64,000 bases of DNA from a phage. The stretch is taken from assembly GCA_017676145.1 (NCBI GenBank), contig GCA_017676145.1_3628.1; one strand, 5' to 3'. The notes below the pieces were generated by a model that was not told the DNA's origin, did not search any database, and worked only from the letters and a program-made list of their open reading frames with translations. This document shows positions 24,512 through 42,324 of the stretch, in pieces (position 1 is the stretch's first letter; the number at the start of each line of letters is the position of its first letter). A program made the translations under genes and the position numbers.

Positions 24512-26851
24512 TTACCAAAGGTCGGTAGACATGAAGTTGATATCTTTATTGTTCTCCCACTCAAGTTTTGCATCAAACATTTTGTTAAACTCACCCTCAT
24601 CTATTGAAATCGTGATTTTCCCATCACTGATCTCTAAAGGTAGCATTTCCATAGTTCTTAATTGAGAAGCAAAACCAGGGCCACCTGGCAACGGAAGAGT
24701 ACCGCCCGGTAAGGTATCCAAAGGATCAACAAACCCGTTACCTCCCGATATGATATCTTTGCGAATCATATCGCTGATAGTATCCAGTTGCTGATTTCTC
24801 TCACTCAGTGGGTTGAAACGGTCATTAAATAACTCCCCGGCACTTAATATTGTACCGATAATACCAAGCTTACCAAGCAGGCCAACTTTACCACCAGGTG
24901 TCTTGAGGCCACCTCCTCCTTTTCCTGCTGCACCCCCACCAGAACCTTCTGTGGTAGCTGCACCCGCTGCTGCTGCTCCAGCTGCACCTCTTATAGAGCT
25001 AAGGAATTTGAAGGTTTTTACAAGCATAGATGCCATGACAAAACCTTTTGTCAGGGCGTTGACTACCAGCATGATGGCAGCAGCAAACCCTGCCCATCTA
25101 GCATAGCTAAAGGTGTCATGAAGCTCTTCAGAGTATTCCTTCGTCTTAGCTGTTATGAATCCCCATTTAATCCCCCATTCAAGGAAAAACATGCGGATCT
25201 TGACTATAGTGTTGTTTAGTTCACCAACTACCCAGTTAAGGCCTCTCACAAACCCGCTAACAAAATCACCAGAGGCATCCCACACAAATTGCAGAGTCTC
25301 ACCAGTGCGGATTAGTGTATAATAGAACTCTGTTAGTTCGTCAGACCAACGGGTGAATAGTTTCTGACGAGTCAGTTCGATGAAGGTTTTCAGTCTGTTT
25401 TCTGCCAGCACGTTAGACTTCTGCATTCTTTCATAACCAGCTGCAGATGCCTCGTTCATGTACTTAGCCACATACTTCATGATCTTGGCTGTTTTAACCT
25501 CACCTTTCTTCATCATATCCATGAACTGATCCATGGAGAGTTCAGAAAGACCAAAAGCCTCTTTGGTGGCCTTGATAAAAGGTTCGTATGCACCAGGCAA
25601 TGCTTCAGCAAGTTGTTGCTTCAGTTCTTCGGACATTACTTGTCCTTTACCGAGCATCTGTTGGATTGCCATGATACCACGCTGGTATTTTACCTCATCG
25701 GCACCATAAGCAGCAGCATACTGGGAGTATGCAGAAAACAGCTCATGCACTTCCTGATTTGTCATCTGGTTTTTGGCGTTTACCGACATCTGGGCGTAAC
25801 CTTGAAGACCAGATTTGAGATCAAAACCAAGACGCATAGCCTCTTGCTGGACAAACGCAACCTCACTGTTGGCTTTGTTTGGATCTCCAGTAACAGCAGT
25901 AAGAGCAGCACTTGCCCCCTCCATCATGTGACCGGATCTGTTAACCGCAGCAAATCCAGAAAAAGCTGTATACGCAGCTGTTGCATTAATAACAGATCTA
26001 CGTAAGTCTCTCATGGCATCGCCTAGTGTAAGCGTTTGGCTGGTGGCGCTTTTAAACCCGGACTGCAGCGCTGACAGGTGGGCGTTAAAGGTTGACTTCT
26101 TCATCTCCCCGCGAGCAAACCTGGACTCTAACTCTGAGTATCCTGGCAAGCTTCCACGGAATCCGGCCCCATACTTGGCAGAAAGTCTTATCGCGGAGTT
26201 GTAGAGGTGGGTTCTCCTTGCCTCACGATCCGACATAAGCTTATTATCCATACCAGCTTTACTGTCTCTTCTTAGCTGTCTATGATAACGATTCATAGCG
26301 GCTGTCTGAGCTTTCACAAGGTTAGGGTCGGAAGCCACACCACCCATATTAGGGTTACCTGGGATATACTTGAAAGATTTAGCATTAGCCAAAACTCTTG
26401 CCTTGGGTGCCTTATAGCCGCCGTAAGACACTGGTGCAGATTTGGCAGCCTTTTTGGCCTCTTTAGCTTGCTGCTGGTAGAACTTACGCATCCTGGCCAT
26501 TTCTGGATTTTTAGCGGTAAGATTACCTACAGCCTGTTTACGTCTTGCGTTCTCCCTACGTTCTATTGCAGCCCTTACTGCAGCCTCTTTCTTGGCTTGT
26601 GCTACGCTCTCCCTGTGAAGTTTAGCATTTGCCTGAGATTGCTGTCTGGCAACCCGCTGCATTGTTTGCTGAGTTTTAACAGCCACTGCTTGCCATCTAC
26701 TCATTGGGTTGGCTGAGTTAAAATCCTCGCCCAGTTTCCTGAACTCCCTCCCAATACTGCGAATTTTCTCTACAGCTTTTTTGTAGGAGGAGTTCTCTAT
26801 CTCAAAGCCAATCTTGTTGACTGTTGTGGCAACTATTTTGTTTGTAGCCAT
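24512..26851 (-). CDS. tail tape measure protein
   Basis: 779 aa; helical N-terminal half; Gly/Ala-rich segment GAGAAAAGAATTEGSGGGAAGKGGGG; immediately after the chaperone pair. Confidence 0.7.
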   Translation of the reverse strand: MATNKIVATTVNKIGFEIENSSYKKAVEKIRSIGREFRKLGEDFNSANPMSRWQAVAVKTQQTMQRVARQQSQANAKLHRESVAQAKKEAAVRAAIERRENARRKQAVGNLTAKNPEMARMRKFYQQQAKEAKKAAKSAPVSYGGYKAPKARVLANAKSFKYIPGNPNMGGVASDPNLVKAQTAAMNRYHRQLRRDSKAGMDNKLMSDREARRTHLYNSAIRLSAKYGAGFRGSLPGYSELESRFARGEMKKSTFNAHLSALQSGFKSATSQTLTLGDAMRDLRRSVINATAAYTAFSGFAAVNRSGHMMEGASAALTAVTGDPNKANSEVAFVQQEAMRLGFDLKSGLQGYAQMSVNAKNQMTNQEVHELFSAYSQYAAAYGADEVKYQRGIMAIQQMLGKGQVMSEELKQQLAEALPGAYEPFIKATKEAFGLSELSMDQFMDMMKKGEVKTAKIMKYVAKYMNEASAAGYERMQKSNVLAENRLKTFIELTRQKLFTRWSDELTEFYYTLIRTGETLQFVWDASGDFVSGFVRGLNWVVGELNNTIVKIRMFFLEWGIKWGFITAKTKEYSEELHDTFSYARWAGFAAAIMLVVNALTKGFVMASMLVKTFKFLSSIRGAAGAAAAGAATTEGSGGGAAGKGGGGLKTPGGKVGLLGKLGIIGTILSAGELFNDRFNPLSERNQQLDTISDMIRKDIISGGNGFVDPLDTLPGGTLPLPGGPGFASQLRTMEMLPLEISDGKITISIDEGEFNKMFDAKLEWENNKDINFMSTDLW

Positions 26852-26906
26852 GCTTTCCTCATAATAAAAAAGGGCCAGATCCCAGAAAAGGAATCCGGCC
26901 CTTAGA

Positions 26907-27155
26907 TTATCCTCTCCTGCGCTTAGCTTTCGCAGCAGCTGCGGCAGCCTTCTGCTCCCGCTCCATTTCTCTGTTTTGGACGGTATCTAGGAATTCTTCG
27001 ATATCAAGATACTCACAGAGCTTCAGGAAATACGCCATATCTGCAAGATTTAGCGATTCAAAATTTTCCCCTTTGAAATTCTTGAGCACCCTGCACCAAA
27101 GAAAGTCGAACCAGTTAAGTGAACTGTTCTTGGCTGCCCACTCACTGGCCCTCAC
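26907..27155 (-). CDS. tail assembly chaperone, -1 frame extension (GT-like fusion)
   Basis: ORF in the -1 frame relative to 27167-27640; frame is open upstream back to the slippery site at 27266-27272. Confidence 0.5.
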   Translation of the reverse strand: MRASEWAAKNSSLNWFDFLWCRVLKNFKGENFESLNLADMAYFLKLCEYLDIEEFLDTVQNREMEREQKAAAAAAKAKRRRG

Positions 27156-27166
27156 AACAACCTTGC

Positions 27167-27640
27167 TTATTCCTGCTCTTCCGGAGTCTGATCCAGATTG
27201 TTCACCTGCTGGATCATACCCATCTGCTGTAACATCTCCAGAAGGCTTCCTAAACCGTCTTGTGTGAAAAAACAGCCGTAGTTAACCTCCAGAACCTTAC
27301 CTGCCAGCTTAATCATCTCCAGCAGATGCCCTGCAAACACAACATCAGGGTTAAGCTTATCCACACCATCCACGGTAATATCTTCGAACAAGATTTTAAA
27401 TAACTCTTCGATAGAGTTATCATCAAGTTCTTGGAACAGGTAAGCCAGGGCTGTAGGAAGGACCTCTGCCATATTCTGACCGCCTGAGAGAATAGATCCA
27501 CCGATAGCACCTAGCGGGACAGCTACAATCTTACCGATTTTAGGCATGTTTTTCATTGCTTTCATCGGTCCCCAGTGGGTGATCACAAAGTTGTGCCCTG
27601 CTAAATCAATCTCTGTTGTAGGTCTAAAGTTTATAGCCAT
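27167..27640 (-). CDS. tail assembly chaperone (G-like)
   Basis: 157 aa; located between tube candidate and tape measure; contains slippery heptamer near its 3' end. Confidence 0.55.
   Translation of the reverse strand: MAINFRPTTEIDLAGHNFVITHWGPMKAMKNMPKIGKIVAVPLGAIGGSILSGGQNMAEVLPTALAYLFQELDDNSIEELFKILFEDITVDGVDKLNPDVVFAGHLLEMIKLAGKVLEVNYGCFFTQDGLGSLLEMLQQMGMIQQVNNLDQTPEEQE
27266..27272 (-). other. candidate -1 programmed ribosomal frameshift site (U UUU UUC)
   Basis: minus-strand TTTTTTC within codons TGT TTT TTC of the G-like ORF; -1 frame has no stop from here through 26907. Confidence 0.45.
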
Positions 27641-27750
27641 TTTATAGCATCCTTATTAGTCATGTTGTGCACCATATTTGTGTATTTTACCATGATTATG
27701 GTGCATTGTCAATTTAACCTTTCAAGCAATTCAAGAACGTGTGTCAAAAC

Positions 27751-27783
27751 CATAAAAGCAAAAAGCCCCACCCGAAGGTGAGG
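27751..27783 (-). terminator. rho-independent terminator after tube gene
   Basis: CCCCACC-CGAA-GGTGAGG hairpin with A-run (U-run on minus strand). Confidence 0.45.
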
Positions 27784-27802
27784 CCTATGCTAAAGTGTGC
27801 CC

Positions 27803-28276
27803 TTAGATAATACCTGCAAGACCTGCGAGGCCAGTGAGAGCACCAGTGATGTTGTCACGGTTGAGCCATGCATCCAGAATACCGATATCCCAGTCCAGTT
27901 GACCTACTTCGGTTCCGTAAGTCAGGTCAGGCTGCTTCTGAATCCAACCGATTGTGGAAATACCAGGACCCTGGCTGCCCTCCAGCAGAACTGGGAAGAA
28001 TACCAGACCAGTAATCGATGCCTGTTTCTGCCAGTCAGAGAGGTAAGCGTTCCATACAGAAGTGTTCTGCAAAGACACAGTCATAACACCTGATTGGTTA
28101 CGAGACAGTGCCGCAGACATTTCGCCATCCACACCAACATGAGGGTAGATGTTGTCTTCGTTTCTTGAAACAACGATCTTGGTGTCAGCAGCGAAGCCAG
28201 TGACACGCTGCTGCATCAGATACAGTTTGACCTTTTTAGGGTCATACGCATAAGGAGTTAAAATTTGAGTTTCCAT
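27803..28276 (-). CDS. tail tube protein candidate
   Basis: 157 aa; sits between sheath-sized gene and the chaperone pair, the usual sheath-tube-chaperone-tape measure order in contractile-tail phages. Confidence 0.45.
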   Translation of the reverse strand: METQILTPYAYDPKKVKLYLMQQRVTGFAADTKIVVSRNEDNIYPHVGVDGEMSAALSRNQSGVMTVSLQNTSVWNAYLSDWQKQASITGLVFFPVLLEGSQGPGISTIGWIQKQPDLTYGTEVGQLDWDIGILDAWLNRDNITGALTGLAGLAGII

Positions 28277-28286
28277 CTAGGCTTCC

Positions 28287-29663
28287 TTATTCAGTCATTG
28301 CAACAGCATTGGTGGATTTAGAACCAACTTTGTCCAGAAGGACGTTGATCCGGATACGAACGAAGTGCAGGGCGTTGTTATACACCAGTTCTACTTTCAC
28401 ACCTTCCAGAACACGAGCAGCCAACTGATTGGTTGGGATCTCTGCACGTTTAGGAACTGTGATGATCGGGTCGTAGAACACATTGTTGTCTTCGTCAAAA
28501 CCTGTCAGGATCGCGCCATTCTTAATGCCAGTATTGATCGGGTTGTTCATCAGAACAGACTTGATAACCGGAAGATCATCATCAGACATCTTCATGCTTA
28601 AACCCATATTGGAGCGGCGATGCATGTACCCGAACATGGATTCTTCAGATCTGAACTTGATCCAGTGTGCAAAACGAATAGCGTCTGCATACTGACCTGA
28701 AGCACACTTACCTTCCCAGAAAGCGCCAACACCGTTAATCATTCTATAGAAGTTAACGTGGTTTTCCCAAATCGCCATGCGCTGAGTTAAAGTCAGAGAT
28801 GGTGCAATCACACCCGGCATCTGTTTTAAGTGCAAGCTGTCACCGTAAGACGGATCGTTGGATGCCATAGCGCCTACGATACCACCCTCTGGAAAATCTT
28901 TATCAGCACGAGGATCGTACATGCCGACACTGTCATACTGTGCAGCCATCAGTTTGGTGGCGATGTTATTATCTTTGCCAGTCACATCTTCTGCAGTAGA
29001 GTAGACATGCAGCTTGTAGTTAGCCTGAGCCCACTTGGCACATGCTTCAATGTCGGTGTGGTCTTCATGGCACAGGAAGTACCAATTGTCACGCTCAGCA
29101 TTGATCTTATCAACTACTGTAGAAGGTTTTTCAGCATTGGCGATATTTTTGATTGTGTAGTTACCAGTATGATAACCAACAGTGCAGTTACCAGTGATGG
29201 TGAGAACACCTTCAGCAGCCTCTACAGTGATATCGTTCAAGCTATCATCTGCTTCAATTTTAGTCTTCATTGACTCTGCAATCTGAGTTGCACCTGTTCC
29301 ACCAGAGATAGGCACTATCAAAGAAGTATTGTAGCTACCTTTTGCAATAGTCATTACAACATCGGTATCAGCTGCGGCAGCAATACCTTTAAAATCTACA
29401 GTGGTCTTTTCTTTGGCCTGTCTGCCGATCATAACGTATTGTGGAGGGAATACACCACCAAAAGCTTTTGCTGCAAACTCATACGCTGCAGAGCCTTGTG
29501 CGAAACCATCTTCCACCATCTGATCCAGCTCTGCATATACGCGAGCTCGCTCAGTAAAGTTGTTGTGGATAGCGATGAACAGGGGAGTTTCGAAACCTAC
29601 AGTGTCAATAGGCTGGGTTCCGAGGTTAACTGTAACATCTACCACTTTATCTAAATATGGCAT
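28287..29663 (-). CDS. tail sheath protein candidate
   Basis: 458 aa; position directly upstream of tube candidate; assigned by size and order only. Confidence 0.45.
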   Translation of the reverse strand: MPYLDKVVDVTVNLGTQPIDTVGFETPLFIAIHNNFTERARVYAELDQMVEDGFAQGSAAYEFAAKAFGGVFPPQYVMIGRQAKEKTTVDFKGIAAAADTDVVMTIAKGSYNTSLIVPISGGTGATQIAESMKTKIEADDSLNDITVEAAEGVLTITGNCTVGYHTGNYTIKNIANAEKPSTVVDKINAERDNWYFLCHEDHTDIEACAKWAQANYKLHVYSTAEDVTGKDNNIATKLMAAQYDSVGMYDPRADKDFPEGGIVGAMASNDPSYGDSLHLKQMPGVIAPSLTLTQRMAIWENHVNFYRMINGVGAFWEGKCASGQYADAIRFAHWIKFRSEESMFGYMHRRSNMGLSMKMSDDDLPVIKSVLMNNPINTGIKNGAILTGFDEDNNVFYDPIITVPKRAEIPTNQLAARVLEGVKVELVYNNALHFVRIRINVLLDKVGSKSTNAVAMTE

Positions 29664-41384: not shown

Positions 41385-41461
41385 TGGTCTCCACGGAGTG
41401 ATTCGAACACTCGACCTCCTGATCCCAAATCAGGCGCTCTACCAAGCTGAGCTACGCGGAG
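41385..41461 (-). tRNA. tRNA-Pro (anticodon UGG)
   Basis: hand-folded cloverleaf: acceptor CTCCGCG/CGTGGAG, anticodon loop TTTGGGA, T-loop TTCGAAT, 3' CCA encoded. Confidence 0.7.
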
Positions 41462-41472
41462 TATTTATAATT

Positions 41473-41547
41473 TGGTGGCCCTGGGTGGAATTGAACCACC
41501 GTCTGGCGATTATGAGTCGCTTGCTTGAACCTTCCAGCTACAGGGCC
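41473..41547 (-). tRNA. tRNA-Met (anticodon CAU; could be Ile2 if lysidinylated)
   Basis: acceptor GGCCCTG/CAGGGCC, anticodon loop CTCATAA, T-arm GGTGG-TTCAATT-CCACC, CCA encoded. Confidence 0.65.
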
Positions 41548-41548
41548 A

Positions 41549-41624
41549 TGGTGCTGATGGCAGGACTTGAACCTGCAACCTATTGATTACAAATCAATTG
41601 CACTACCGATTGTGCTACATCAGC
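41549..41624 (-). tRNA. tRNA-Thr (anticodon UGU)
   Basis: acceptor GCTGATG/CATCAGC, anticodon arm ATTGA-TTTGTAA-TCAAT, T-loop TTCAAGT, CCA encoded. Confidence 0.7.
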
Positions 41625-41629
41625 AAAAA

Positions 41630-41728
41630 GGTGCTAGGTGATGGAATCGAACCACCTATGTATTCAACGACTACCTCGTCTATTTTCAGGATTAAAAATC
41701 CTCGCCCTTGCCAAAGGGCTTACCTAGC
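41630..41728 (-). tRNA. atypical tRNA-like gene, anticodon UUU (Lys) candidate, with about 30 nt variable region
   Basis: perfect 7 bp acceptor GCTAGGT/ACCTAGC, D-arm GCCC-TTTGGCAA-GGGC, anticodon arm GAGGA-TTTTTAA-TCCTG, T-arm GGTGG-TTCGATT-CCATC; extra hairpin GACGA-GGTAG-TCGTT in variable region. Confidence 0.45.
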
Positions 41729-41826
41729 GCAATATGTTGACCATGTGGCTAGTCGGCGATGACGACTGTAACATTTGATAATCCGGTTCTGCTTCCGGCT
41801 TTCGCTTAATTACAAGGTCAACAATG

Positions 41827-41917
41827 TGGCGGAGAGTAATGGAATCGAACCATCATCGAGTCATCCTCAACGGGACGGTTTTCAAGACCGCTTGAGCACC
41901 ATTGCTCCCTACCCTCC
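41827..41917 (-). tRNA. tRNA-Ser (anticodon UGA), long variable arm
   Basis: acceptor GGAGGGT/ACTCTCC, anticodon arm GCGGT-CTTGAAA-ACCGT, T-loop TTCGATT, CCA encoded. Confidence 0.65.
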
Positions 41918-42031
41918 TTTATAAATTACACTGATAATGACACTGATTTTCGAGCAGTTAGTGACTAGTATAAACGACGATAAATATCAATGCCATTATC
42001 TGTATGATTTATGCATTTAAAAATATAAATT

Positions 42032-42119
42032 TGGTGGTGAGTGATGGAGTCGAACCACCCGAATCGCAATGATAACAGATTTACAGTCTGCCCCGCTACC
42101 CCTACGGAATTAACTCACC
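42032..42119 (-). tRNA. tRNA-Tyr (anticodon GUA), long variable arm
   Basis: acceptor GGTGAGT/ACTCACC, anticodon arm GCAGA-CTGTAAA-TCTGT, T-loop TTCGACT, CCA encoded. Confidence 0.65.
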
Positions 42120-42249
42120 TAAATACTAATATTTAAATTCTTTTTAAAATAGCTAGTGTTCTCACCACTAACTATGAGGTATCGGTAAAGTGGTTACCGC
42201 CACTTGCCGAAGATTTACTCTGCTAAAGTAAGCTACATTAAAAAGAACT

Positions 42250-42324
42250 TGGCACCCCGTACTGGACTCGAACCAGTGTCAACGGCTTAGAAGGCCGCTG
42301 CTTTATCCACTAAGCTAACAGGGC
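42250..42324 (-). tRNA. tRNA-Arg (anticodon UCU)
   Basis: acceptor GCCCTGT/ACGGGGT (two G-U pairs), D-arm GCTT-AGTGGATA-AAGC, anticodon loop CTTCTAA, T-loop TTCGAGT, CCA encoded. Confidence 0.65.

What the first reader, a model, noticed from the sequence alone, without database searches (positions are those of the whole stretch)
26907..27640. Programmed -1 frameshift in the tail assembly chaperone pair
The G-like ORF (27167-27640) contains the slippery heptamer U UUU UUC (minus-strand coordinates 27272-27266) 28 codons before its stop; from that point the -1 frame is open all the way through ORF 26907-27155. That is the classical G/GT arrangement immediately upstream of the tape measure gene, predicting a fusion product of about 205 aa.
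Basis: partly seen in the sequence, partly recalled or inferred. Interest (0 to 1): 0.45.

Follow-up and report, generated by a model that had tools for sequence, protein, structure and literature searches.

The report
Tail chaperone frameshift in rV5-like phage
This rV5-like E. coli phage very probably makes its two tail assembly chaperones from one gene by a programmed backward ribosome slip on UUUUUUC, a well-known phage trick that has simply not been annotated in this phage group.

Summary
The window is a Vequintavirus, 99.6% identical to Escherichia phage FV3. On the minus strand the gene order is sheath, tube, G (27640-27167, Pfam Phage_TAC_15), T ORF (27155-26907), tape measure.

The heptamer T TTT TTC (27272-27266) is in X XXY YYZ phase in G. 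The -1 frame opens three codons upstream of it and stays open to 26907.

Two numbers need correcting: 32 codons (not 28) separate the heptamer from the G stop, and the fusion is 244 aa (not about 205).

Comparative evidence is strong:
- All 78 relatives analysed (G identity down to about 26%) keep a -1 ORF overlapping the 3' end of G.
- In 41 unique contexts the codon before Phe-Phe varies (TGT, CCT, AGT, TCT) but always ends in T, and Phe-Phe is always TTT TTC.
- Two lineages have swapped in other canonical heptamers (C CCU UUU, G GGA AAG).
- Several relatives have no start codon ahead of the conserved T domain.
- Synonymous variation falls from 0.57 to 0.21 at the site.

A GGAGGU 12 nt upstream is a likely stimulator. 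A downstream hairpin is not supported.

No public record inspected annotates the fusion. Related phage families were reported to use the homologous site in December 2025. Verdict: a new member of a known kind, of low to moderate interest.

The parts
27763..27786 (-). Intrinsic-terminator-like hairpin after the tail tube gene, upstream of the G unit
   Evidence: 10-bp stem with 6 G-C pairs, followed by a T-run. The Gotham record annotates the equivalent site as a terminator.
27684..27712 (-). Sigma-70-type promoter-like site for the G/GT unit (TTGACA, 17 nt, TAAAAT, with a TG extension)
   Evidence: 11 of 12 matches. The rV5 record annotates promoter P51 at the same relative position.
27167..27640 (-). 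Gene G: tail assembly chaperone, 157 aa, 17.3 kDa, the zero-frame product
   Evidence: Pfam PF21822 Phage_TAC_15, E = 1.1e-23, 84.5 bits against a cut-off of 22. phrog_3840 'tail assembly chaperone', E = 6e-69.
27285..27290 (-). Internal Shine-Dalgarno-like GGAGGU, 12 nt upstream of the heptamer; candidate stimulator of the -1 shift
   Evidence: Sequence. An SD-like 4-mer sits at this position in 32 of 41 unique contexts, against a 9.4% background. The Glu codon here is GAG in 32 of 39 contexts, against 36% elsewhere in the same genes. The spacing fits the experimentally based rule in PMC4066793. Its function is inferred, not shown.
27282..27284 (-). Last -1-frame stop codon (TAA) before the slip site; the -1 frame is open from 27281
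27266..27272 (-). Slippery heptamer U UUU UUC (P-site UUU = F124, A-site UUC = F125)
   Evidence: It is conserved at the homologous position in 83 of 85 fetched sequences. Across 41 unique contexts the -1 codon is TGT, CCT, AGT or TCT (wobble T invariant) and Phe-Phe is always TTT TTC. U_UU.U_UU.C is among the efficient E. coli motifs (PMC4066793).
27167..27265 (-). Dual-coding overlap: the last 32 codons of G plus its stop in frame 0, and RRFRKPSG plus a Gly/Ser/Asp-rich linker in frame -1
   Evidence: The synonymous-difference fraction is 0.21 at the slip site and 0.38 in the rest of the overlap, against 0.57 upstream. The -1-frame motif RFR(K/R)P is conserved as far as Barba16S, Herod and phiPsa397.
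27190..27256 (-). Candidate weak downstream hairpin (9-nt spacer); status inconclusive
   Evidence: The RNAalifold consensus with the 70%-identity clade has 4 pairs changed on both sides. In the window it is not the minimum-energy fold, its z-score is only -0.71, and no hairpin meets the rule of PMC4066793.
26907..27266 (-). The -1-frame extension translated only after the slip (119 aa plus stop). The full GT product is G residues 1-125 plus this extension: 244 aa, 27.1 kDa
   Evidence: Residues 163-244 of the fusion match phrog_10409 (E = 4e-50, unknown function). The segment has no Pfam or PDB match.
26910..27170 (-). Conserved T domain (from about ISKVV..RA..KNSSL.WFD.L to the basic C-terminus). 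The annotated GTG start at 27155 falls inside it
   Evidence: Alignments. Start-codon survey.
26870..26903 (-). Strong intrinsic terminator between the T stop and the tape measure gene
   Evidence: 14-bp stem plus a T-run.: -27.9 kcal/mol, z = -5.0. It is annotated as a Rho-independent terminator in rV5.
24512..26851 (-). Tail tape measure protein gene (779 aa), immediately downstream
   Evidence: Pfam TMP_3, E = 1.5e-18. phrog_5255, E = 0.
27803..28276 (-). Tail tube protein gene (157 aa), immediately upstream
   Evidence: Pfam KPP10_Orf10 and phrog_280. Several related records annotate it as tail tube protein.
28287..29663 (-). Tail sheath gene (458 aa)
   Evidence: phrog_205 'tail sheath', E = 9e-118, and Pfam DUF3383.

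Best explanation
Genes G and T of this rV5-like myovirus are one recoded gene.

Most ribosomes translate G (27640-27167) to its stop and release the 157-aa chaperone gpG. A minority slip one base backwards when the two tRNA-Phe(GAA) molecules occupy UUU (P site) and UUC (A site) of U UUU UUC (27272-27266). Both tRNAs re-pair on UUU UUU, and translation continues in the -1 frame through 119 more codons to 26907. The product is a 244-aa gpGT with this layout:
- G residues 1-125;
- the motif HTRRFRKPSG;
- a flexible Gly/Ser/Asp-rich linker;
- a conserved T domain of about 85 aa.

A Shine-Dalgarno-like GGAGGU 12 nt upstream probably raises the slip rate by pairing with 16S rRNA. No convincing downstream RNA structure exists in this phage.

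By analogy with lambda gpG/gpGT and P2 E/E+E', the shared G part would coat the tape measure protein. The T domain of the rare long form would recruit the tube protein so that the tail polymerises to the measured length. Neither form would stay in the virion.

What is shown: the sequence architecture, the family membership of G and the conservation pattern. What is inferred: the slip itself, its frequency, the SD effect and the binding partners.
For: Anatomy:
- The heptamer is in phase, and the -1 frame opens 3 codons before it and stays open for 119 codons after it.
- The +1 frame is closed after 19 aa.
- The -1 frame has 14 stops in the 122 codons upstream and none in the 119 downstream. The same pattern holds in 15 of 15 diverse relatives.

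Family and synteny:
- G hits PF21822 and phrog_3840 and lies between the tube and tape measure genes.

Conservation:
- All 17 GenBank relatives first fetched and all 61 IMG/VR loci keep a -1 ORF overlapping the 3' end of G.
- U UUU UUC is at the homologous codons in 83 of 85 fetched sequences.
- The -1 codon varies in amino acid (Cys, Pro, Ser as TGT, CCT, AGT, TCT) but its wobble T is invariant in 41 of 41 unique contexts.
- Phe-Phe is TTT TTC in 41 of 41 contexts. Elsewhere in the same genes Phe is 45% TTT, and wobble T in Cys/Pro/Ser codons is 35%.
- Neighbouring Tyr, Asn, Val and Gly codons vary freely.
- KLEP7 has C CCU UUU, Barba16S has G GGA AAG three codons downstream, and Vibrio PWH3a-P1 has A AAU UUU.
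- Synonymous variation drops from 0.57 to 0.21 at the site.

Translation of the -1 frame from the slip site:
- The peptide right after the slip (RFR[K/R]P) is conserved out to Rheinheimera, Acinetobacter and Pseudomonas phages.
- In K54rec2, CB7, F5M2A, KLEP7 and phiA009 the first possible start codon lies inside the conserved T domain.

Motif competence:
- U_UU.U_UU.C is frameshift-prone in E. coli, and U_UU.C is the second-best tetramer (PMC4066793).
- P2 uses TTTTTTG without a hairpin (PMC3091744).

SD-like element: with the spacing rule.
Against: - No protein-level evidence exists. No fused product appears among 73 homologues in a 5.8-billion-cluster protein database, and none of about 25 GenBank records inspected annotates a joined CDS.
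- In this phage, unlike several relatives, a GTG with a weak AAGG SD (spacing 5) lies at 27155, so some independent initiation of an 82-aa T cannot be excluded.
- The IMG/VR loci were retrieved with a peptide pattern that requires ..[CPS][FL]F. The presence of Phe-Phe there is therefore ascertained, although codon choice is not.
- The unique contexts are not phylogenetically independent, so the p-values are overstated.
- No significant downstream structure is present.
- A T6 run is also compatible in principle with RNA polymerase slippage.
Confidence: 0.87

Rival explanations
1. Transcriptional slippage. RNA polymerase adds one extra U while copying the T6 run. A minority of mRNAs would then carry G and T in one frame, and the ribosome would read normally.
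For: The site is a homopolymer run, and inserting one U gives exactly the -1 frame. The invariant wobble T before Phe-Phe lengthens the run from 5 to 6, which this model also predicts. In Herod and phiPsa397 the T-run sits in a different codon phase, where a canonical tandem slip is not available.
Against: Six residues is shorter than the runs known to give useful slippage by E. coli RNA polymerase, about 8-9 or more (own knowledge). The last base is C in 41 of 41 contexts, so the run is never extended to T7. Lineages that lost the run replaced it with in-phase X XXY YYZ heptamers that have no long homopolymer: G GGA AAG in Barba16S and A AAU UUU in PWH3a-P1. Only ribosomal slippage explains that. 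A conserved SD-like element at the spacing that stimulates ribosomal -1 shifts has no role in this model.
Confidence: 0.07
2. Two separate genes. T is translated independently from GTG 27155 (AAGG SD, 5-nt spacing) as an 82-aa protein, as most records annotate it, and the heptamer is incidental.
For: The window has a GTG with a weak SD at that position. Many records and phrog_10409 treat the 82-aa ORF as a gene.
Against: The GTG falls inside a conserved block (ISKVVVRASEW), and conservation continues upstream of it. Called lengths in the database range from 60 to 122 aa, and some records omit the ORF altogether, so gene callers find no consistent start. In K54rec2, CB7, F5M2A, KLEP7 and phiA009 the first ATG, GTG or TTG lies 58-84 residues into the C-part, inside the conserved domain and with no SD. 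The -1 frame is kept open through so-called intergenic gaps of 60-90 nt in Av-05, CB7 and others. This model does not explain the nucleotide-level conservation of the heptamer.
Confidence: 0.04
3. Artefact or pseudogene. G and T are one ordinary gene split by a homopolymer sequencing error or a recent frameshift mutation.
For: Homopolymer runs are error-prone in sequencing.
Against: The same T6 length and the same two-frame layout occur in 83 of 85 fetched sequences, including single isolates, RefSeq records and metagenome contigs. The frame-0 tail of G after the site is itself conserved and ends at a similar position in relatives.
Confidence: 0.01

Closest known systems
Bacteriophage lambda gpG/gpGT (Levin, Hendrix and Casjens 1993; Xu, Hendrix and Duda 2004, 2013, 2014; summarised in PMC5009743)
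   Same: Two overlapping ORFs lie directly upstream of the tape measure gene. There is a -1 shift on an X XXY YYZ heptamer near the 3' end of G, giving a short abundant form and a rare long form. No strong downstream structure is present. The presumed division of labour is the same: G binds the tape measure protein and T recruits the tube or tail protein.
   Different: The heptamer is U UUU UUC with tRNA-Phe in both sites, not G GGA AAG with tRNA-Gly and tRNA-Lys. G belongs to a different sequence family (PF21822). The tail is contractile. The T domain has no detectable similarity to any Pfam family. A conserved upstream SD-like element is present. The unit has its own promoter and terminators.
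Bacteriophage P2 E / E+E' (PMC3091744)
   Same: It is a contractile-tail coliphage with the gene order sheath, tube, chaperone pair, tape measure. The -1 shift occurs on a U6N heptamer (TTTTTTG), and no downstream hairpin is present.
   Different: The last base is G rather than C. The proteins are smaller (91 and 142 aa against 157 and 244 aa). No sequence similarity to this G or T was found with the tools used.
Tail chaperone -1 frameshift with a conserved GTTTTT motif in Vandenendeviridae (Pakpunavirus Adele) and Andersonviridae (Felix O1-like, Mooglevirus) (PMC12846349, December 2025)
   Same: These are evolutionarily related virion modules. The slip is at the homologous codons at the end of the ..NY.. 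helix of the chaperone. The -1 ORF is routinely mis-annotated as a separate hypothetical gene. The -1-frame motif RFRRP follows the slip in phiPsa397 and Herod, as RRFRKP does here.
   Different: In those phages the codons are GUU UUU (Val-Phe), a non-canonical, T7-gene-10-like G GUU UUU. Here, and throughout Vequintavirinae, Stephanstirmvirinae and Plateaulakevirus, they are U UUU UUC (Phe-Phe), a fully canonical heptamer. The paper notes that Vequintavirinae are related but does not report the frameshift for them.
E. coli dnaX and IS911-type -1 frameshift signals (SD-like stimulator rule in PMC4066793)
   Same: An internal Shine-Dalgarno-like sequence lies 6-17 nt upstream of the slippery heptamer. 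Here it is GGAGGU, 12 nt upstream.
   Different: dnaX and IS911 also need a strong downstream stem-loop or three-way junction. None is supported here.

Membership tests
Tail assembly chaperone G/GT pair with programmed -1 frameshift (Xu, Hendrix and Duda 2004) | The pair of ORFs lies between the major tail/tube gene and the tape measure gene, on the same strand | tested here: met
   Tube 28276-27803, G 27640-27167, T 27155-26907, tape measure 26851-24512, all on the minus strand.
Tail assembly chaperone G/GT pair with programmed -1 frameshift (Xu, Hendrix and Duda 2004) | The second ORF is in the -1 frame relative to the first and overlaps its 3' end | tested here: met
   The -1 frame is open from 27281 and overlaps G by 115 nt. 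The +1 frame is closed.
Tail assembly chaperone G/GT pair with programmed -1 frameshift (Xu, Hendrix and Duda 2004) | A slippery X XXY YYZ heptamer, in zero-frame phase, lies inside the overlap | tested here: met
   U UUU UUC at 27272-27266. It is the only canonical heptamer in G.
Tail assembly chaperone G/GT pair with programmed -1 frameshift (Xu, Hendrix and Duda 2004) | The arrangement is conserved in relatives despite sequence divergence | tested here: met
   17 GenBank relatives plus 61 IMG/VR loci, with G identity down to about 26%. Outgroups Herod, phiPsa397 and PWH3a-P1 also keep it.
Tail assembly chaperone G/GT pair with programmed -1 frameshift (Xu, Hendrix and Duda 2004) | Both the short and the frameshifted long protein are made, at a fixed low ratio | not testable with these tools
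   This needs proteomics or a reporter assay. No fused protein appears in public protein sets.
Tail assembly chaperone G/GT pair with programmed -1 frameshift (Xu, Hendrix and Duda 2004) | Both products are required for tail assembly and absent from mature virions | not testable with these tools
There is only a weak hint.
Pfam PF21822 Phage_TAC_15 | The hmmscan score is above the curated gathering threshold | tested here: met
   84.5 bits against a cut-off of 22; residues 15-129 match profile positions 2-125 of 127.
SD-stimulated -1 frameshift sites (dnaX / IS911 type) | [quoted passage not shown] | tested here: met
   GGAGGU at 27290-27285, enriched at this position across relatives. A stimulatory effect was not tested.
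SD-stimulated -1 frameshift sites (dnaX / IS911 type) | A stable hairpin or pseudoknot starts 4-10 nt after the motif | tested here: not met
   No hairpin qualifies in the window under the rule of PMC4066793. Fold z-scores are -0.37, +0.76 and -0.71. Covariation with one sister clade is only suggestive.
Transcriptional slippage sites | A long A or T homopolymer (about 8-9 or more for E. coli RNA polymerase; own knowledge), acting independently of codon phase | tested here: not met
   The run is T6 and is never longer in 41 contexts. Where replaced, the new sites are phase-locked heptamers without long runs.

The most novel reading that the evidence does not exclude
The slip rate, and so the G:GT ratio, may be set by more than the heptamer. 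The proposed signal has two parts. The first is a conserved upstream GGAGGU that pairs with 16S rRNA. The second is a clade-specific long-range helix anchored on the conserved GGUUU(C/A)G just downstream. In the window this would be 27256-27190. In Seunavirus and Certrevirus relatives it would be a stem of about 100 nt that closes over the G stop codon, with compensatory changes. Terminating ribosomes could then feed back on frameshifting. That would make this a regulated recoding signal, unlike the stimulator-free lambda and P2 sites.
Probability: 0.2. Interest if true: 0.45.

Novelty: new member of a known kind. Interest (0 to 1): 0.25.

Why it matters
Practical value:
- More than 100 deposited rV5-like genomes, including RefSeq records, annotate the T region in four inconsistent ways: an 82-aa hypothetical gene, an overlapping 122-aa ORF, two fragments, or nothing.
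- The related Seunavirus, Certrevirus, Phapecoctavirus and Justusliebigvirus genomes show the same inconsistency.
- A single joined CDS (27640..27266, 27266..26907) with ribosomal_slippage would correct them.

Biological value:
- The data show one slip position held fixed across several phage subfamilies while the heptamer itself turns over: U UUU UUC, C CCU UUU, G GGA AAG, A AAU UUU and G GUU UUU.
- This is a clean natural series for studying how frameshift efficiency is tuned.

It does not change what is known about the mechanism of tail assembly chaperones.

Tried and rejected
- Downstream stimulatory RNA. Single-sequence folds of 60, 67 and 97 nt were no better than shuffles. The hairpin rule of PMC4066793 gave none in the window. 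50 of 58 relatives have a qualifying hairpin, but the rule is permissive and the hairpins are not homologous. An alignment fold with the sister clade is suggestive only. I treat this as inconclusive.
- Function of the T domain. There was no Pfam hit even at E = 10, no NCBIfam hit and no PDB sequence hit, with either a single sequence or a 16-member profile. DUF6889 matched two members at E about 0.07, which I did not accept.
- Search for an existing annotation of the frameshift. None was found in about 25 inspected records, in a 5.8-billion-cluster protein search or in the T ORF cluster.
- Literature. The library holds no paper reporting the frameshift for rV5 or Vequintavirus. The Virology 2022 paper on T4-like chaperones could not be read.
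- The MiataMamis record splits T into two small CDS, but the -1 frame is intact there, so this is an annotation artefact.
- Two other long -1 extensions in the window (plus strand, 16703 and 16844) lie in a shadow ORF inside a 1268-aa minus-strand gene and were rejected.
- The deep-sea phage D6E locus did not show a clear -1 pair and was left out.
Full report
**Identity and context**

The 1.1-kb region around the finding is 99.6% identical to Escherichia phage FV3. It is 95-99% identical to more than 100 rV5-like phages of the genus Vequintavirus.

All genes in this region lie on the minus strand, in this order:
- Tail sheath, 29663-28287 (phrog_205, Pfam DUF3383).
- Tail tube, 28276-27803 (Pfam KPP10_Orf10, phrog_280).
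- A 157-aa ORF, 27640-27167.
- An 82-aa ORF, 27155-26907.
- Tape measure protein, 26851-24512 (Pfam TMP_3, phrog_5255).
- Baseplate genes further downstream.

The 157-aa ORF is a member of Pfam PF21822 Phage_TAC_15 (E = 1.1e-23) and of phrog_3840 'tail assembly chaperone' (E = 6e-69). The 82-aa ORF matches only phrog_10409, of unknown function.

**Check of the observation**

Read on the minus strand, the G-frame codons at 27274-27266 are TGT TTT TTC (C123 F124 F125). TTTTTTC at 27272-27266 is therefore a slippery heptamer in X XXY YYZ phase.

The -1 frame has a TAA at 27284-27282. It opens at 27281, three codons before the heptamer, and runs without a stop to 26909-26907. It is the frame of the 82-aa ORF.

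- 32 codons, not 28, separate the heptamer from the G stop.
- The fusion is 125 + 119 = 244 aa (27.1 kDa), not about 205.

**Is it more than chance?**

On its own the window gives moderate support.
- In-frame canonical heptamers occur at 2.9 per 1000 codons, so about 0.11 are expected in the 38-codon overlap.
- Of 67 such heptamers in the window, this is the only one in a credible gene followed by at least 60 open -1 codons. The two others lie in a shadow ORF inside a 1268-aa gene on the other strand.
- The -1 frame has 14 stops in the 122 codons before the site and none in the 119 after it.

**Comparative evidence**

I fetched 17 GenBank relatives. They span Vequintavirus, Seunavirus, Avunavirus, Certrevirus, Phapecoctavirus, Justusliebigvirus, Plateaulakevirus, Barbavirus and an unclassified Pseudaeromonas phage, with G identity from 99% down to 28%.

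- All 17 have a -1 ORF of 117-131 aa overlapping the 3' end of G by 85-157 nt.
- The +1 frame is short in all of them.
- In 15 of 15 diverse relatives, -1-frame stops number 9-26 upstream of the slip site and zero downstream.

A scan of IMG/VR added 61 loci, all with the same layout. One caveat applies: that scan used a peptide pattern that requires ..[CPS][FL]F. The presence of Phe-Phe there is therefore ascertained, but codon choice is not.

Across 41 unique 39-nt contexts:
- The codon before Phe-Phe is TGT (13), CCT (11), AGT (9) or TCT (8). That is three different amino acids with an invariant wobble T.
- Phe-Phe is TTT TTC in 41 of 41.
- The neighbouring Tyr (TAC 28, TAT 13), Asn, Val and Gly codons vary freely.

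Elsewhere in the same genes Phe is 45% TTT, and the wobble of Cys/Pro/Ser codons is T in 35%. Selection is therefore acting on the nucleotides U UUU UUC and not on the peptide.

The fraction of identical-residue codon pairs that differ synonymously falls along the gene:
- 0.57 upstream of the site.
- 0.21 in the window from -3 to +8 codons.
- 0.38 in the rest of the overlap.

**Turnover of the slip site**

Two relatives lack U UUU UUC.
- KLEP7 has C CCU UUU one codon upstream.
- Barba16S has lost Phe-Phe (HYGCLTS) and carries the lambda-type G GGA AAG three codons downstream. Its -1 peptide (VFRIPSGD) aligns with RRFRKPSGD of the window.

Outgroups found through the tube protein show other motifs at or next to the homologous codons:
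- Vibrio PWH3a-P1 has A AAU UUU.
- Otagovirus phiPsa397 has G GUU UUU.
- Saclayvirus Herod has U GUU UUU.
- In phiPsa397 and Herod, RFRRP again follows in the -1 frame.

Different in-phase slippery motifs at one fixed position are what ribosomal frameshifting predicts. Neither chance nor polymerase slippage predicts this.

**Is T a separate gene?**

In the window a GTG at 27155 is preceded by AAGG at a spacing of 5. However, it lies inside a conserved block (ISKVVVRASEW).

In K54rec2, CB7, F5M2A, KLEP7 and phiA009 the first ATG, GTG or TTG in the T frame is 58-84 residues past the slip site. That is inside the conserved domain, and no SD precedes it. In those phages the T domain can only be reached from G.

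Public annotation reflects the missing start:
- The T cluster in a 15-billion-protein collection holds versions of 60, 77, 81, 82, 83, 87 and 122 aa, all hypothetical.
- Some records omit the ORF or split it.
- The original rV5 record annotates an overlapping ORF50.
- None of about 25 records inspected has a joined CDS.
- No fused protein is among 73 homologues in a 5.8-billion-cluster search.

**Mechanism**

E. coli reads both UUU and UUC with tRNA-Phe(GAA) (own knowledge). After a -1 slip both tRNAs re-pair on UUU.

Sharma et al. 2014 (PMC4066793) report the following for E. coli:
- U_UU.C is the second most shift-prone tetramer.
- H_HH.U_UU.Y heptamers are among the efficient class.
- U_UU.U_UU.C is used by IS elements.

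P2 E/E+E' uses TTTTTTG and has no downstream hairpin (PMC3091744).

A likely stimulator is GGAGGU at 27290-27285, 12 nt before the heptamer.
- It fits the experimentally based window of 6-17 nt used by Sharma et al..
- An SD-like 4-mer occupies this position in 32 of 41 contexts, against a 9.4% background.
- The Glu codon there is GAG in 32 of 39 contexts, against 36% elsewhere.
- These counts are not corrected for phylogeny, and the element is absent in the Certrevirus and Plateaulakevirus contexts. It is supportive but not essential.

A downstream structure is not supported in the window.
- Fold z-scores are -0.37, +0.76 and -0.71.
- No hairpin meets the published rule.
- A 67-nt hairpin (27256-27190) shares 4 covarying pairs with a 70%-identity sister clade. 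That is a single evolutionary comparison.

**Function**

This part is inferred from lambda (PMC5009743).
- gpG and the G part of gpGT bind the tape measure protein.
- The T domain recruits the tube protein.
- The ratio is about 30:1.
- Neither protein is in the virion.

Here the C-part has three segments: a short conserved basic motif, a variable Gly/Ser/Asp/Pro-rich linker, and a conserved domain of about 85 aa ending in a basic tail. The domain has no Pfam or PDB relative.

**Comparison with what is known, and novelty**

This is the classical G/GT recoding device. The closest published case is the conserved -1 frameshift with a GTTTTT motif in tail chaperone genes of Vandenendeviridae and Andersonviridae (PMC12846349, December 2025). 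The authors place those clades next to Vequintavirinae.

My outgroup analysis shows that the sites are homologous. The Vequintavirinae, Stephanstirmvirinae and Plateaulakevirus version is the fully canonical U UUU UUC.

I found no report or annotation of the frameshift for rV5-like phages. It is therefore a new member of a known kind. Its value lies mainly in correcting annotation and in offering a natural series of slip-site variants.

**Verdict**

| Explanation | Confidence |
|---|---|
| Programmed -1 ribosomal frameshift producing a 244-aa GT | about 0.87 |
| Transcriptional slippage | about 0.07 |
| Independent T gene | about 0.04 |
| Artefact | about 0.01 |

Interest: 0.25.

Noticed in passing
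window 26870-27786 (minus strand): The G/GT pair looks like a self-contained transcription unit. A terminator-like hairpin follows the tube gene (27786-27763). Next comes a near-consensus extended -10 sigma-70 promoter (27712-27684). A strong terminator (26903-26870, z = -5.0) lies between the T stop and the tape measure start. Chaperone dosage may therefore be set separately from the tube and tape measure genes.
   Followed up: partly
window 41385-42324 (minus strand): A tRNA cluster (Pro-UGG, Met, Thr-UGU, Ser-UGA, Arg-UCU). It also holds a 99-nt element at 41630-41728 that ARAGORN calls 'tRNA-???' with a 4-base anticodon (atcc). Rfam scores that element as tRNA at 35.5 bits. Rfam finds one more tRNA-like element at 42035-42119 (39 bits) that ARAGORN missed. 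There is no tRNA-Phe in the window.
   Followed up: partly
L005, L006, L007, L032, L034, L036, L045 (Seunavirus, Avunavirus and Klebsiella clade) and L008, L010, L017, L037, L039, L041 (Certrevirus); alignment A3, columns 14-18 with 115-119: In these relatives a stem begins 6-7 nt after the heptamer (GACGG or AGCGG). It pairs about 100 nt downstream with CCGUC or CCGCU, just past the G stop codon. Two adjacent pairs change on both sides between the clades, and further pairs enclose the stop codon. This may be a long-range frameshift stimulator. The window does not have it.
   Followed up: partly
GenBank MG0656xx records (hits H28-H30, H38, H45, H100, H104, H105): About 23 records named 'Campylobacter phage' with host Campylobacter jejuni are 96-100% identical to rV5-like coliphages over this region, and none of those listed in the hit tables carries any annotation. 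They look like mislabelled or contaminant Vequintavirus genomes.
   Followed up: no
L014 (Rheinheimera phage Barba16S) 1820-2458: In Barbavirus a reverse-strand gene annotated as a putative DNA-binding protein sits between the GT pair and the tape measure gene. This breaks the otherwise universal adjacency.
   Followed up: no
L085 (deep-sea thermophilic phage D6E) 2909-3829: The 920-nt stretch between the tube-like gene and the tape measure gene is unannotated. It holds short ORFs whose frame relation looks like +1 rather than -1. This may be a different recoding arrangement or a different chaperone family.
   Followed up: no
L002 (Escherichia phage MiataMamis) 1707-1945: The T region is annotated as two small hypothetical CDS (132 and 96 nt) although the -1 frame is intact for 124 codons. 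This is an example of the annotation scatter caused by the unrecognised frameshift.
   Followed up: yes
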